A stretch of 64,000 nt of DNA from an uncultured archaeon (GTDB lineage Archaea; Asgardarchaeota; Lokiarchaeia; Sigyniarchaeales; SOKP01). The stretch is from NCBI GenBank assembly GCA_964388035.1, contig CAYLZE010000010.1:1-64000 (forward strand). The letters are read 5' to 3'. Below the pieces are notes generated by a model that saw only the letters and a program-made list of their open reading frames with translations, searched no databases and was not told the origin of the DNA. Positions 28,323 to 45,223 of the stretch are shown piece by piece (position 1 is the first letter of the stretch; each line of letters begins with the position of its first letter). Position numbers and translations under genes: made by a program.

Positions 28323-29604
28323 TTAGCCATAATGCTTCTCTTCTTCTTGTTCTGAATCAATAGCATCTTGCTCAACATCTCTGCCCAACCACTTTTCGCT
28401 TAAAATCTCCTTGTACCATTCGTGTTGGATAATGAGGCTCATTATTTCGTATGTACCGAATAGGGATGATGGGAGATCCCAATTCGCTTGTACCGGTCCA
28501 TATGGAGGACAAACGAGCATCTCTCAGTAATCTCTCAATGGGATATACGGTAGTGTAACCGATGCCTCCCATTATTTGCATCGCATTATTTATTACTTTC
28601 CAACACGCTTCCGTGGAGAATTTTTTAGCTTCAGAAACCATTCGTCTTTGTACGCTTGGTGGTGCTCCTGCATCAATCATCCTTGCAGTATTTAAAACGA
28701 TAGAACGTGCGGCATCTAATAGGGTAATTCCCTCTGCCATATTAAAATTTACTGCCTGAAATTTTTGTATTACCTGCCCAAATGCCTTGCGTTTAGTGCT
28801 ATATTTAGCAGCTACCCTTAAACACGCTCTAGCCGTTCCCAATATGCCAGAAGCTGTTGTAAGTCTCTCGGGAACCATCATTTGATAAAATATTTTTCCT
28901 CCTGCTCCTTCTGCTAAAATAACATTCTCTTTTGGAACTTTTACGTCTTTAAACTTTAAACGCCCAGCACCCCCACCACGAGTTCCCATTAATCCATAGA
29001 GATATTCCGTGCTTACTCCTTCAGTCCTATCCACAATGAGGAGACTTAACGCATTATGAGGATCAGCTTTAGGATCCGTGTTAGTTCTAGCATACACCAA
29101 GAAAAAGTCCGCACCTTCCGCACCTACTACGAATCTTTTTTCTCCGTTCAAGATATAATGCTCTCCTTGTTTAACGGCAGTAGAAGTGGCACCGAAAAAA
29201 TCGCTTCCGCCTCGGGGTTCAGTCAGGGCTTCTGCTGTAAATTTTTCTCCTTTGAGCATTGGCACAAGATATTTTTGCTTCTGCTCTTCCGTGCCGAACA
29301 TGTTAAGGGCTTCACCGCAGATACTTACTAGAGAAAAGAGACAGCCCAGAGACATCCCCAGAACGCCAATCTCTTCTAGAGCAACTACTTCGTTTTCCCA
29401 ATTTAATCCTCTTCCTCCATATTTCTTGGGAAATCTGAGGCCAATTAGATTATGTTTTGCAAGACTTTTTAAATATTCGGTTGGGTATCGCACCTCATCT
29501 TTATCCATTTTCTTCAAGAGAGAGGGTGGTACTTCATCCCGGACGAAATTCCTAACCTCTTCTTTCAATTTACGTGTTTCTTCGCTGATTATATAATCAA
29601 ACAT
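28323..29604 (-). CDS. Acyl-CoA dehydrogenase interrupted by a 37-nt BHB intron (414 aa when spliced)
   Basis: ALTEPRGGSD, LNGEKRF, RKAFG, QIMGGIGY, RDAR; removing 28451-28487 joins the ORFs to give IWTGTNEIMSLII. Confidence 0.9.
28451..28487 (-). other. Predicted bulge-helix-bulge intron in mRNA (37 nt)
   Basis: CG-GUAC-AA^G-CGAAUUGGGA...UCCCUAUUCG-GUAC-AU^A-CG: 4-bp helix between two 3-nt bulges. Confidence 0.85.
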
Positions 29605-29763
29605 TTTTATTCTACCACAAACATTCTTGTTCTCGTTAAATAATAATATTCTTAATTGAATATTATATCTTATGGATTTCTCATGCAATATTTAGGATAA
29701 AGTGAGATAAATGCGGTGGAACTCTCCCATTTCAATCCAAGAGAAATAATAAATTCACTCGAA

Positions 29764-42430: not shown

Positions 42431-43697
42431 TTATATTTTTGAAGCTATTAAATCAATGAGATCAATAACTTCGATTTTACTTCTTATTTCTGGTCCCATT
42501 TCCTCATATGCGTCCTTTAAATTACCAATACAAAACGGACAACTCGTAGTTAAAATGTCTGCCCCGGATTCCACGGCTTCCTTGATTCTTTCTTTAGAGA
42601 TTTCTATTGCTAATTCGGGAAATTCGCTTTTCACACCACCACCAGCTCCACAACACCACGCATTTTTTCGATTTCTCCGCATTTCTACCAATTCCACTCC
42701 GGGTAATTTACCAATTACTTCTCGGGGAATCTCATATAAATCCATGTGACGCCCTAAATGACAAGGATCATGATACGTGAGAAGCTTCTTTTCCCCTTGT
42801 TCTTGCTTAAACGTGAGTTCATTGTTGTTTAAGATGTCCATTAAAACCTCAGTAATATGCTTAACCTCAAAGGGTAACTCTTTACCGATAATTTCGGGAT
42901 AATCTTTCTTGATCGTTCGATAACATCCCGCACAAGCCGTAAAAACCGTTTTCGCACCCATTTTTTCAAATAATTCGATATTGTGTCGCACGAGATCATT
43001 AATGGAATCATAATCGCCAATTCTCATTCCAATGGAGCCGCAGCACCATTCCTCTTTCGAGAGAGCAATGTCTTTTCCACTTGCTAACAGAATCTTCATC
43101 ATGCTTTTTAACGTTTCTTGTTGTCTCAATGGCATGGTACATCCCGCGAAAAATACAAGATCGCCTTTCTCCTTGAGGATAGAAAAATCCTTTGCCCATT
43201 CAAATTTTTTATCATAATCTTCTCCGTACGGATTTTTCATGGAATCTTCCTTCATATAATTGATTAAATTAACATGTTTATCAATCGGAGCGAATCCTGC
43301 GGCAACCAAGTCCCTGCGCAAGGCATCCCACACTTTGAAATGATCAATCCATTTTGATGTATTGAGGACAATATTATCATTGTGCGTTTCATGGCAAACC
43401 TCCGTACAATTCGCGCATTCGGTACATTGATAAACAAATTCTGCCAATTCCTTGCTTAAAGGTAATTTGCCCTCCAATACGCTTTTTAGAATGTTCATCC
43501 TTCCCCGGGCAAAATAAATCTCGAATCCCTCTTCATTTTTCGCTTCTTTCACCGGACATGTTAAATATCTTCCTACCGCAGGTCTAATAGAAAAGCCACA
43601 ATCTCCACAGCCCTTTTGCAGTCTAGAATAGATTTCTAAAACTTATACAAGACATTATGGCTTTCCACTCTTTCCTCAAGTTTTTTAATTCGCTCAT
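42431..43697 (-). CDS. GlcF/GlpC-like Fe-S oxidoreductase (ferredoxin + 2 CCG domains) interrupted by a 31-nt BHB intron (411 aa when spliced)
   Basis: CTECANC, WCCG, YHDPCHLGR, CCGAGGG; ATG at 43697 lies 2 nt after the upstream stop; removing 43614-43644 gives MSELKNLRKEWKAIMSCMGCGDCG. Confidence 0.88.
43614..43644 (-). other. Predicted bulge-helix-bulge intron in mRNA (31 nt)
   Basis: GUC-UUGU-AU^A-AGUUUUAGAA(aucua)UUCUAGACU-GCAA-AA^G-GGC. Confidence 0.82.
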
Positions 43698-43699
43698 TT

Positions 43700-45223
43700 T
43701 TATTTATCCCCCCAAAAATTGAATTTACCTCTACTTAATATATGCTTTGGATCTAGGGTTTTCTTCACTTCTGCTAAAAACTTGTAGTATTCTGGAACAT
43801 ATGCATCGATATCGACCATGAGCCGGGAAGCAAATTCCCCCATCATGTACCATTCCACACCCCATTTAGTTACCATTTCTAAAAAGGACTTCCATAATTT
43901 CAAGTCCAGGGTTTCAAATTCTTCATGAATTTCTTCATTGTAATAGCTTCCATAAGTTGTAAATCCGCAAGTTAATTCTACATTGCAACCATCAATTAAT
44001 AATATAGGGCCACTACCAGAAATGGGGCGCTGACCGGTGATATTGGTAAATACTTGCATCTCTGCATTATGTTCCATGTCCCATTGATCAATTGCATCCA
44101 AAATCTTAGGATATTCATTTATGGGTGTAAAGCATTCAGCGGTGCAAGGCTCTAAGGCGGGAAACAAATTCCAGAGGTTATGATAAAACTGCCAGTGCCC
44201 TTGTTCAACGTAATGCCATTTTGCGATATTACCATCATCAATTTCTGGCCCCAACACTTCAGATTTATTTTCCAAAAATATTTTATCCAATTGTTTTATT
44301 TTCTCCTCTAGTTCGGCTTCTGAATTTGCTTCCACGGTATAAAACATAATGCCTCTTTTTTTCTTAAGATTTTCCCACAAAGGAAACATGCCTTGTTGGC
44401 ATCCAATCCTAACAATTATGTCATACATGTACATTAAATCATACACGTCAATTCCTGCATGTCTAACATCCGAGAAGATCTTGGAGGAGACTTCTCTATC
44501 TTTCCTAGGTAAAAAGAAAGTCTTATAATTTGCAAATCCTGGTCGCGGAAATACTTGAAGGGTAATCTGGGTTTTCACTCCTAAGATGCCATTATCTCCA
44601 CAGAAAAGGCCATTTAAATCTGGTCCATTTCCACATCGATTAAAATGATTCTTGGTGTACTTATTTGCTTTTGAACCCGTTTCTATGATTTCTCCCGTGG
44701 GCAAAACTACTTGGAGTCCCACTAATTGATTCGTACACGATCCATATTTAGCGCAACCTCCTCCTCCCACAGAGTGATGAGATACTCCACCACCAACAGA
44801 CGCAGTCATGCCAGAACCTGGACCCATGCAGCCCGTATATAATCCATAGTGGCATAGATATTCGTTTAATTTACCCCAAGAGATGCCCGCTTGTACTGTT
44901 ACTACTAAATTATCTTGATCAAAATTTACAATGTTATCCATTCTTTTCATATCAAGTACTATACCCCCATCTTTTACGGGTTTACTACCACCGAATTCAC
45001 AATCACCGCCGCCTCGTGGCACTACGGGGACGTTCTCTTGATTTGCTATTTTTATTATCTCGGAAATCTCTTCAGCATTTTTCGGTCTAATGACGATATC
45101 AGGAACTCCTTGCAAGACTGGGTCCACATTCCTCGAATATGCGTGGCGAACAATCAGGTTGTCTGAAAGAAATTTATTGGTAACTACCTTTTCTAACTTT
45201 TTGTATACTTCTGACATTTTCAT
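43700..45223 (-). CDS. FAD-binding oxidoreductase (GlcD/VAO family)
   Basis: PDIVIRP, VVPRGGG, GLQVVLPTGE, GILGV, LDPKHIL. Confidence 0.88.
   Translation of the reverse strand: MKMSEVYKKLEKVVTNKFLSDNLIVRHAYSRNVDPVLQGVPDIVIRPKNAEEISEIIKIANQENVPVVPRGGGDCEFGGSKPVKDGGIVLDMKRMDNIVNFDQDNLVVTVQAGISWGKLNEYLCHYGLYTGCMGPGSGMTASVGGGVSHHSVGGGGCAKYGSCTNQLVGLQVVLPTGEIIETGSKANKYTKNHFNRCGNGPDLNGLFCGDNGILGVKTQITLQVFPRPGFANYKTFFLPRKDREVSSKIFSDVRHAGIDVYDLMYMYDIIVRIGCQQGMFPLWENLKKKRGIMFYTVEANSEAELEEKIKQLDKIFLENKSEVLGPEIDDGNIAKWHYVEQGHWQFYHNLWNLFPALEPCTAECFTPINEYPKILDAIDQWDMEHNAEMQVFTNITGQRPISGSGPILLIDGCNVELTCGFTTYGSYYNEEIHEEFETLDLKLWKSFLEMVTKWGVEWYMMGEFASRLMVDIDAYVPEYYKFLAEVKKTLDPKHILSRGKFNFWGDK

What the first reader, a model, noticed from the sequence alone, without database searches (positions are those of the whole stretch)
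28451..28487. BHB intron inside an acyl-CoA dehydrogenase mRNA
Seen: the ACAD frame breaks after IWTGT and resumes in another frame. The 37-nt insert folds on the mRNA as outer CG/CG, central helix GUAC/GUAC, 3-nt bulges AAG and AUA, and inner stem CGAAUUGGGA/UCCCUAUUCG. Established: archaeal splicing endonuclease (EndA) cuts BHB motifs after the 2nd nt of each bulge, and RtcB ligates. Cutting there gives ACC GGU ACA A|AC GAA AUA AUG = TGTNEIM, the canonical ACAD GT(N/S)EI motif, and a 414-aa ORF. Inference: a real spliced intron rather than an assembly frameshift. BHB mRNA introns are established mainly for crenarchaeal cbf5.
Basis: partly seen in the sequence, partly recalled or inferred. 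Interest (0 to 1): 0.95.

Follow-up and report, generated by a model that had tools for sequence, protein, structure and literature searches.

The report
tRNA-type mini-intron in Asgard ACAD gene
A 37-base hairpin shaped like a tRNA intron breaks the reading frame of an acyl-CoA dehydrogenase gene in an Asgard-type archaeon. Comparison with about 100 relatives indicates that the tRNA-splicing enzymes cut it out of the messenger RNA, a kind of splicing published inside an archaeal coding sequence only for one gene, cbf5.

Summary
Window 28451-28487 (minus strand) is a 37-nt insert that shifts the frame of a three-domain acyl-CoA dehydrogenase gene. It folds as a bulge-helix-bulge: a 4-bp central helix, two 3-nt bulges, a 10-pair inner stem and a 2-bp outer helix.

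- **Predicted product:** cutting after the second base of each bulge gives a 414-aa protein that is colinear with the intron-free gene of the same-genus relative.
- **DNA is real:** contigs of three other sequencing runs carry the insert unchanged.
- **Distribution:** 104 of 154 genomes of the order have the ortholog, and only this genome and one other carry an insert. Two metagenome contigs add two more.
- **The four inserts (37, 34, 29, 29 nt):**
  - They sit in the same codon phase.
  - They keep the motif through compensatory changes.
  - They fix the same synonymous exon bases.
  - All four give the conserved motif and a conserved C-terminal end, full-length in the three alleles not cut by a contig end.
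- **Selection:** exon 2 is under strong purifying selection only in the spliced frame.
- **Machinery:** the genome encodes alpha and beta EndA subunits and RtcB.

No RNA data exist, so splicing itself is inferred. This scan has already noted the same kind of intron in other genes of this genome. My own scan found two more.

The parts
28488..29604 (-). Exon 1 of the acyl-CoA dehydrogenase gene (ATG at 29604; ends with the first base of the N codon, phase 1)
   Evidence: Translation P0001. Pfam Acyl-CoA_dh_N, _M and _1, the last up to profile position 137 of 150. Colinear with orthologs.
28451..28487 (-). 37-nt bulge-helix-bulge intron (third base of bulge 1 through second base of bulge 2)
   Evidence: fold. 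(unique in the genome). (present in contigs of other runs). (related inserts at the same site in three other alleles, with covariation).
28323..28450 (-). Exon 2 (last two bases of the N codon, 40 further codons and the stop at 28325-28323)
   Evidence: The spliced product ends like all orthologs. pN/pS is 0.06 in the spliced frame against 3.7 or undefined in the other two frames.
28490..28495 (-). Exon-encoded half of the motif: outer-helix strand (28495-28494) and central-helix strand GUAC (28493-28490)
   Evidence: The synonymous bases of the G and T codons are the same (GGT ACA) in all four intron-bearing alleles, and in only 1 of 25 intron-free ones.
28487..28489 (-). Bulge 1 (AAG); inferred 5' cut between 28488 and 28487
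   Evidence: Geometry. The cut rule was calibrated on a tRNA-Met intron of the same genome. The product matches orthologs.
28457..28486 (-). Inner stem (28486-28477 with 28466-28457, one U.U mismatch) and 10-nt loop (28476-28467)
   Evidence: Compensatory changes at the first inner pairs across alleles.
28453..28456 (-). Intron-encoded strand of the central helix (GUAC; GUAU in the other three alleles, a G.U wobble)
   Evidence: central helix 100% paired in all four alleles.
28448..28452 (-). Bulge 2 (AUA, 28452-28450; inferred 3' cut between 28451 and 28450) and outer-helix strand CG (28449-28448)
   Evidence: The outer helix is weak: 2 bp here, 1-2 bp in the other alleles.

Best explanation
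This is a genuine archaeal bulge-helix-bulge intron in the pre-mRNA of an acyl-CoA dehydrogenase gene of an uncultured Asgard-type archaeon.

Shown:
- The gene as written in DNA is out of frame after the W-T-G-T residues.
- The insert and its exon flanks form the motif.
- Removing exactly the bases between the second base of each bulge restores a 414-aa protein colinear with intron-free orthologs.

Inferred:
- The heteromeric (alpha-beta) splicing endonuclease EndA of the host cuts both bulges. This type is known to accept relaxed motifs outside tRNA.
- RtcB joins the exons and probably circularises the 37-nt intron.
- Only the spliced message gives a working enzyme. An unspliced message would give a protein with a 38-residue out-of-frame tail in place of the last helix of the C-terminal domain.

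The outer (exon-exon) helix is only 1-2 bp. The motif is therefore of the relaxed kind rather than the strict tRNA kind.
For: - **Motif and chance.** The motif is at the stated coordinates. Its chance is about 1.3e-6 per site and length.
- **Real DNA.** Contigs of runs X2, X3 and X5 bridge the insert with no change inside it. X5 is from another year and habitat label and is a SNP variant. No intron-free joint is seen.
- **Rarity.** Of 154 genomes of the order, 104 have the ortholog. Only G000 and G022 have an insert.
- **Predicted product.** The same-genus G001 is intron-free and reads exactly the predicted spliced product at the junction.
- **Four alleles, one site.** Four alleles (G000 37 nt, G022 34 nt, metagenome loci L041 and L042 29 nt each) carry inserts in the same phase of the same codon.
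  - After the same cut rule all give GT(N/S)EIM. The three alleles not cut by a contig end give full-length products of 414, 412 and 414 aa. L041 is cut at its 5' end by the contig.
  - All four end with the family's conserved C-terminal residues.
- **Covariation.** 88.6% of cells are paired, against 23-60% with slid partners. Three pairs show compensatory double changes. The central helix is 100% paired.
- **Constrained exon bases.** The exon synonymous sites that form the motif are fixed in 4 of 4 intron alleles and in 1 of 25 intron-free ones.
- **Selection on exon 2.** pN/pS in the spliced frame is 0.06, 0.08 and 0.16 for three allele pairs. It is about 1 or more in the other frames.
- **Machinery.** There are two EndA paralogs and one RtcB.
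  - One paralog has the Tyr/His/Lys catalytic residues.
  - The other lacks the His.
  - Both are over the Pfam cut-off.
- **Cut rule.** On a tRNA-Met gene of this genome the rule reproduces the intron that ARAGORN places from tRNA structure.
- **Other genes.** In the same genome a 30-nt motif splits a MoCF_biosynth domain exactly at profile position 66|67. A 29-nt one splits an ADH_N domain.
Against: - No RNA evidence exists. No listed run with this DNA is RNA, so neither the spliced junction nor a circular intron has been seen.
- The outer helix is only 2 bp (1-2 bp in the other alleles). Cleavage of bulge 2 therefore depends on a relaxed-specificity enzyme that has not been tested for this lineage.
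- Folding energy is not exceptional.
- Both N and S are acceptable at the junction codon. The product alone cannot separate the predicted cut from cuts 1-5 bases further 3'.
- The MAG has 7% estimated contamination, so assigning both EndA paralogs to this organism is an assumption.
Confidence: 0.88

Rival explanations
1. A frameshifting insertion in a gene that is dead or dying (a pseudogene). The hairpin shape is incidental.
For: As written in DNA the frame is broken. Most orthologs lack the insert. There is no RNA evidence.
Against: Exon 2 shows pN/pS of 0.06-0.16 in the spliced frame only. Four lineages with diverged inserts all keep an intact downstream frame and the same cut geometry. The motif-forming synonymous exon bases are fixed. 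The strain variant in run X5 keeps the insert unchanged.
Confidence: 0.05
2. Translational bypassing, where the ribosome hops as in phage T4 gene 60. In G000 the bases just before the insert are repeated at its 3' end (a 7-nt direct repeat, period 37), so peptidyl-tRNA-Thr could take off and land on matching ACA codons.
For: The direct repeat and a hairpin directly after the take-off codon are present in G000.
Against: The repeat follows from the palindromic central helix. It is not kept in the other three alleles, where the 3' copy reads GUAU. The hop would give Y at the junction, a residue seen in none of the 25 intron-free orthologs examined. Insert length varies from 29 to 37 nt.
Confidence: 0.02
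3. An assembly or sequencing artefact, or a small mobile-element insertion with a target-site duplication.
For: The 7-nt direct repeat flanks the insert. The source is a metagenome-assembled genome in 211 contigs.
Against: Independent contigs of three other runs hold it. It is unique in the 5.47-Mb genome even with 3 mismatches. A pattern for it matches only the two ACAD sites in 154 genomes. Related inserts occur at the same codon in other assemblies.
Confidence: 0.02

Closest known systems
cbf5 pre-mRNA intron of Desulfurococcales and Sulfolobales (Watanabe 2002; Yoshinari 2006; Yokobori 2009, PMC2738675)
   Same: A short intron inside an archaeal coding sequence, bounded by a (frequently relaxed) bulge-helix-bulge motif. 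The host has a hetero-oligomeric EndA. Presence and absence differ between lineages.
   Different: A different gene (a metabolic ACAD rather than an RNA pseudouridine synthase). A different lineage (Asgard-type rather than Crenarchaeota). Much patchier: 2 of 104 genomes with the ortholog, with each intron allele sister to an intron-free one. One of several such introns in the same genome. Splicing is not yet shown experimentally.
Non-canonical tRNA introns of Asgard archaea (PMC11291895; bioRxiv 10.64898/2026.10.13.758758) and of Thermoproteales
   Same: The same motif, the same size range and the same presumed enzymes. A tRNA-Met intron of this genome has similar A-rich bulges. Repeated gain at one position has been proposed for Asgard tRNA introns.
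   Different: The host RNA is a messenger, with no tRNA scaffold to present the motif. Removal must be exact to the base to keep the reading frame.
BHB intron in the 5' UTR of Haloferax volcanii HVO_1309 (PMC7714728)
   Same: An EndA substrate within an mRNA. That case was confirmed by circRNA-seq and in vitro cleavage.
   Different: It lies in the untranslated leader and does not interrupt a coding sequence.
Unconventional splicing of HAC1/XBP1 mRNA (IRE1 endonuclease, with RtcB as ligase in animals); from my own knowledge, not tested here
   Same: Works alike: a protein endonuclease cuts two small stem-loop sites in a messenger, an RNA ligase joins the exons, and removing a very short intron changes the reading frame of the C-terminal part.
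   Different: A different endonuclease and a different recognition motif. It is regulated by stress. There is no evidence here for regulation.

Membership tests
Archaeal bulge-helix-bulge (EndA-dependent) intron | [quoted passage not shown] | tested here: met
   Kept in all four alleles: central helix 100% paired.
Archaeal bulge-helix-bulge (EndA-dependent) intron | Flanking helices on both sides (strict hBHBh' form) | tested here: inconclusive
   The inner helix is strong (9 of 10 pairs). The outer helix is only 2 bp here and 1-2 bp in the other alleles. This fits a relaxed motif, not the strict one.
Archaeal bulge-helix-bulge (EndA-dependent) intron | Cuts at the symmetric positions in the bulges give a functional ligated RNA | tested here: met
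   By comparison only. The rule gives the product colinear with intron-free orthologs in all four alleles. It reproduces a tRNA-Met intron of this genome.
Archaeal bulge-helix-bulge (EndA-dependent) intron | The host encodes a splicing endonuclease able to take relaxed motifs, and an RtcB ligase | tested here: met
   Two EndA paralogs, one with and one without the catalytic His. RtcB is present. Asgard EndA is reported as the (alpha-beta)2 type with the L1 loop (PMC5829648). The L1 loop itself was not examined here.
Archaeal bulge-helix-bulge (EndA-dependent) intron | A spliced RNA and an excised (circular) intron exist in cells | not testable with these tools
   No RNA run holds this DNA.
cbf5 intron family of Crenarchaeota | Located in the cbf5 gene of Desulfurococcales or Sulfolobales | tested here: not met
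   The host gene has the three ACAD Pfam domains. The genome carries a 423-bit actin homolog and is Asgard-like.
Translational bypass element (T4 gene 60 type) | Matched take-off and landing codons conserved among homologs | tested here: not met
   They match in G000 only. The other three alleles have GUAU at the 3' copy.
Miniature mobile element (MITE-like) insertion | Several related copies in the genome | tested here: not met
   One copy with up to 3 mismatches in 5.47 Mb. The pattern is found only at the ACAD site in 154 genomes.

The most novel reading that the evidence does not exclude
The intron is mobile at the RNA level. Under this reading, related mini-introns entered the same codon of this gene more than once in different lineages. 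One conceivable route is reversal of the EndA/RtcB reaction at an exon sequence that already offers half a motif, followed by copying back into DNA. Bulge-helix-bulge mini-introns would then be a class of intron that actively colonises protein-coding genes in the closest archaeal relatives of eukaryotes.

The tree forces four changes of state. Each intron allele is sister to an intron-free one. The exon flanks resemble the phylogenetic sister, not the other intron alleles.

The alternative is one old gain followed by ten or more exact losses. That would itself be unusual.
Probability: 0.25. Interest if true: 0.95.

Novelty: new member of a known kind. Interest (0 to 1): 0.8.

Why it matters
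In the papers I could search, splicing of a coding sequence by the tRNA-splicing enzymes is documented in Archaea for a single gene, cbf5. Asgard archaea have been described as intron-rich only in their tRNA genes.

- **A wider substrate range.** A frame-breaking intron in an ordinary metabolic gene, together with further cases in the same genome, would mean that messenger splicing by protein enzymes is a regular part of gene expression in a lineage close to the origin of eukaryotes.
- **Annotation.** Gene callers will report a 438-aa protein with a false tail, or two fragments, for such genes.
- **Gain and loss.** The presence/absence pattern at one codon, with four scattered alleles among about 100 orthologs, gives a tractable case for asking how such introns are gained and lost.

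Tried and rejected
- **RNA evidence.** No RNA holder is listed for this DNA. Expression and splicing could not be examined.
- **Genome-wide open-frame scans.** Two scans asked whether splicing at the predicted cut fuses open, coding-like frames more often than cuts shifted by 1-3 bases. They showed no excess (297 against 291-338; 38 against 38-44).
  - The background is dominated by junctions between neighbouring genes, so the test has no power.
  - The first version even excluded the ACAD intron through a filter that was too strict.
  - Individual hits were then tested by Pfam instead.
- **One candidate from that list stays open.** C13:35055-35095 (41 nt) gave no Pfam match on either side.
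- **First metagenome pattern.** A pattern built on the G000 and G022 intron ends found nothing. A pattern built only on the exon residues found two more alleles.
- **Truncated matches.** Those in G119 and G132 looked like possible further intron alleles. They are intron-free genes cut by contig ends.
- **ARAGORN.** With intron search it reports only 22 tRNA genes, 15 with introns and several implausible. I used it only for one clean calibration case.
- **Lateral transfer of a gene segment.** The 180 bases flanking the site are most like each allele's intron-free sister.
- **Group I or II intron.** An element of 29-37 nt is too short for a ribozyme core (my own knowledge).

Full report
**The observation**

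The gene lies on the minus strand. From an ATG at 29604 it reads through the three Pfam domains of acyl-CoA dehydrogenases. After the residues W-T-G-T it leaves the family's sequence and runs on for 38 unrelated codons. A second frame holds the expected C-terminal end, down to a stop at 28325-28323.

The 37 bases 28451-28487 separate the two frames. Read as RNA, the region has these elements:
- a 2-bp outer helix (28495-28494 with 28449-28448)
- a 4-bp central helix GUAC/GUAC (28493-28490 with 28456-28453)
- 3-nt bulges AAG (28489-28487) and AUA (28452-28450) on opposite strands
- an inner stem of ten positions with one U.U mismatch (28486-28477 with 28466-28457)
- a 10-nt loop

The minimum-energy fold contains the central helix, the 5' bulge and the inner stem. 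Cutting after the second base of each bulge removes exactly 37 nt. It places one exon-1 base and two exon-2 bases into an AAC (N) codon, giving GTNEIM and a 414-aa product. It omits only the U.U mismatch and the weakness of the outer helix.

**Chance**

I scanned both strands of the 5.47-Mb genome for this geometry at intron lengths of 14-150. Motifs with an inner stem of at least 9 pairs (at most one mismatch), four Watson-Crick central pairs and at least two outer pairs number 1929. The scan covered about 1.5e9 position-by-length combinations, so the rate is about 1.3e-6 for a fixed site and length. Allowing the dozen cut offsets that would also restore the frame still leaves about 1e-5.

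Stability alone is not striking. It is z = -2.0 for the 81-nt context, and 6% of shuffled inserts fold as well. The argument rests on geometry and comparison.

**Is the insert real DNA?**

The 37-mer occurs once in the genome even with three mismatches. Logan contigs of three other public runs bridge it:
- Two salt-marsh runs of 2019 show no difference over 247-304 bases.
- One sediment run of 2023 carries two SNPs and a 1-base gap elsewhere, but the insert is unchanged.

No contig joins the exons without the insert. An assembly artefact is excluded.

**Comparison with relatives**

- **How rare it is.** A protein search of 154 genomes of the same order finds the ortholog in 104. All are uninterrupted except G000 and G022. 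Three truncated matches are contig ends in intron-free genes.
- **The closest relative.** The same-genus genome G001 is intron-free. It reads, residue for residue at the junction, what the spliced G000 message would read.
- **A second genome.** G022, of another genus, has a 34-nt insert at the same place.
- **Two metagenome alleles.** A metagenome scan used a pattern made only of the flanking amino-acid motifs. It returned two more alleles, each with a 29-nt insert.
- **Same rule, same result.** In all four the exon part reads GGTACAA. The central helix is GUAC with GUAC or GUAU, and the bulges are A-rich. The same cut rule gives AAC, AGC, AAU or AGU, that is N or S, the residues seen in most intron-free orthologs.
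  - The products are 414, 412 and 414 aa, plus one cut by a contig end.
  - All end in the family's conserved last residues.

**Signs of selection on the structure and on the spliced frame**

- **Covariation.** On the alignment of the four alleles, 88.6% of cells in the core structure are paired, against 23-60% when the 3' partners are slid by 1-3 columns. Three inner pairs show compensatory double changes, and the central helix is paired in every allele. The distal inner stems have unrelated sequences yet remain complementary.
- **Exon bases.** The synonymous bases of the G and T codons that form the exon strand of the central helix are identical in 4 of 4 intron alleles. They are found in 1 of 25 intron-free ones. 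The pattern used to find two of the alleles left these bases free.
- **Exon 2.** Each intron allele was compared with its intron-free sister.
  - For G000 against G001, exon 2 has 14 synonymous and 4 non-synonymous differences, so pN/pS is 0.06.
  - The ratios are 0.08 and 0.16 for two other pairs.
  - In the two other frames, including the one read without splicing, the ratio is about 1 or higher.
  - A lineage that had drifted as a pseudogene for a sizeable part of that divergence would show tens of non-synonymous changes.
  - The comparison for G022 was spoiled by a one-codon indel and is not used.

**Machinery and cut rule**

The genome encodes two EndA paralogs over the Pfam cut-off. One (202 aa) has the Tyr/His/Lys residues of catalytic subunits. 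The other (200 aa) lacks the His, as structural beta subunits do. It also encodes one RtcB.

Asgard archaea are reported to have the (alpha-beta)2 enzyme with the L1 loop, which confers broad specificity (PMC5829648). Hetero-oligomeric EndA was the proposed basis of cbf5 splicing (PMC2738675).

The genome also holds an actin homolog scoring 423 bits, in line with an Asgard origin. I did not obtain a taxon name: G022 is filed only as an uncultured archaeon.

As an internal calibration I used a tRNA-Met gene (C31:36337-36435). It has a clean motif, and the rule of cutting after the second base of each bulge predicts exactly the intron (start 41, length 23) that ARAGORN places from the tRNA structure.

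**Other introns of the kind in this genome**

Earlier notes of this scan report similar mini-introns in other genes of the same genome, including one at 43614-43644 of this window. I treated these as leads.

- **The window's second site.** Reading 43560-43700 myself, I find that a central helix and two bulges can be drawn there. Removing the stated 31 nt restores a CxxCxxC motif. I did not go further.
- **My own scan.** It combined the motif with open, coding-like flanks and listed 38 sites including the ACAD one. Most are junctions between neighbouring genes, but two stand out.
  - A 30-nt motif at C47:27882-27911 splits a MoCF_biosynth domain so that the upstream piece ends at profile position 66 on its last residue. 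The downstream piece begins at position 67 on its first residue.
  - A 29-nt motif at C50:19070-19098 lies in the zinc-binding motif of an alcohol dehydrogenase. The downstream piece starts at ADH_N profile position 15 on its first residue.

The ACAD intron is therefore not an isolated oddity.

**Distribution**

In a maximum-likelihood tree of 30 alleles the four intron-bearing ones are scattered within one family. Each is sister to an intron-free allele with high support, and at least four changes of state are forced.

The 180 bases flanking the site resemble each allele's sister, not the other intron alleles. Transfer of a gene segment is therefore unlikely.

The G000 and G022 inserts are clearly alike, and the two 29-nt ones share length and 3' end. 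This fits an old intron with many exact losses. Repeated entry at the same codon cannot be excluded, and has been proposed for Asgard tRNA introns.

**Rivals**

- **Pseudogene.** Contradicted by the selection data and by four intact lineages.
- **Ribosomal hopping.** Suggested by a 7-nt direct repeat in G000. That repeat is a by-product of the palindromic central helix. It is absent from the other alleles, and the hop would give a Y that none of the 25 intron-free orthologs examined has.
- **Artefact or mobile-element insertion.** Contradicted.

**Literature**

In the library available, introns of this type inside an archaeal coding sequence are reported only for cbf5 (PMC2738675). A 2020 study says so explicitly and adds one in a 5' UTR (PMC7714728). 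Papers on Asgard introns deal with tRNA genes only. Three searches found no report of such introns in Asgard protein genes. Subscription journals are largely missing from that library.

**Limits**

- Splicing is inferred: no RNA data exist for this organism.
- The outer helix is minimal, so cleavage at bulge 2 depends on a relaxed-specificity enzyme that has not been tested.
- The exact cut cannot be separated by the product alone from cuts 1-5 bases downstream, which would give S instead of N.
- The genome is a metagenome-assembled one with 7% estimated contamination.

Noticed in passing
window 43614-43644 (minus strand): A second frame-breaking 31-nt insert in this window, flagged by earlier notes of the scan, in an Fe-S protein gene. 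A central helix (UUGU with GCAA) and two 3-nt bulges can be drawn. Removing it restores a CxxCxxC motif right after the start of the gene.
   Followed up: partly
G000 C47:27882-27911 (minus strand); locus L044 683-712: A 30-nt bulge-helix-bulge insert with a 6-bp outer helix splits a MoCF_biosynth (molybdopterin-binding) domain exactly between profile positions 66 and 67. This is a clear further mRNA intron of the same kind.
   Followed up: partly
G000 C50:19070-19098 (plus strand); locus L043 271-299: A 29-nt bulge-helix-bulge insert in phase 1, inside the zinc-binding motif of a zinc alcohol dehydrogenase. The downstream piece starts at ADH_N profile position 15 on its first residue.
   Followed up: partly
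G000 C13:35055-35095 (minus strand); locus L045 356-396: A 41-nt candidate whose spliced junction would lie just before a D-x-x-G-H-G-T motif typical of subtilases, followed by a 1419-codon open frame. Neither flank gave a Pfam match in the short pieces tested, so it stays open.
   Followed up: partly
window 28451-28500 (minus strand): The seven bases before the insert (CGGTACA) recur at its 3' end, a direct repeat with period 37. The first bases of the intron also resemble the first bases of exon 2. The intron-circle junction would therefore resemble the exon-exon junction, as expected for a nearly two-fold symmetric motif. This may bear on how the intron arose.
   Followed up: partly
whole genome G000: ARAGORN finds only 22 tRNA genes in a genome estimated 97% complete, and 15 of them have predicted introns. 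Many tRNA genes are probably hidden by non-canonical or multiple introns, as reported for other Asgard genomes.
   Followed up: no
window 28372-29688 (minus strand): Mechanical ORF calling gives a 438-aa frame from a TTG at 29688, with a false 38-residue tail, and a separate 65-aa ORF (28323-28520) that holds the true C-terminal end. Automatic annotation of this gene will be wrong at both ends.
   Followed up: yes
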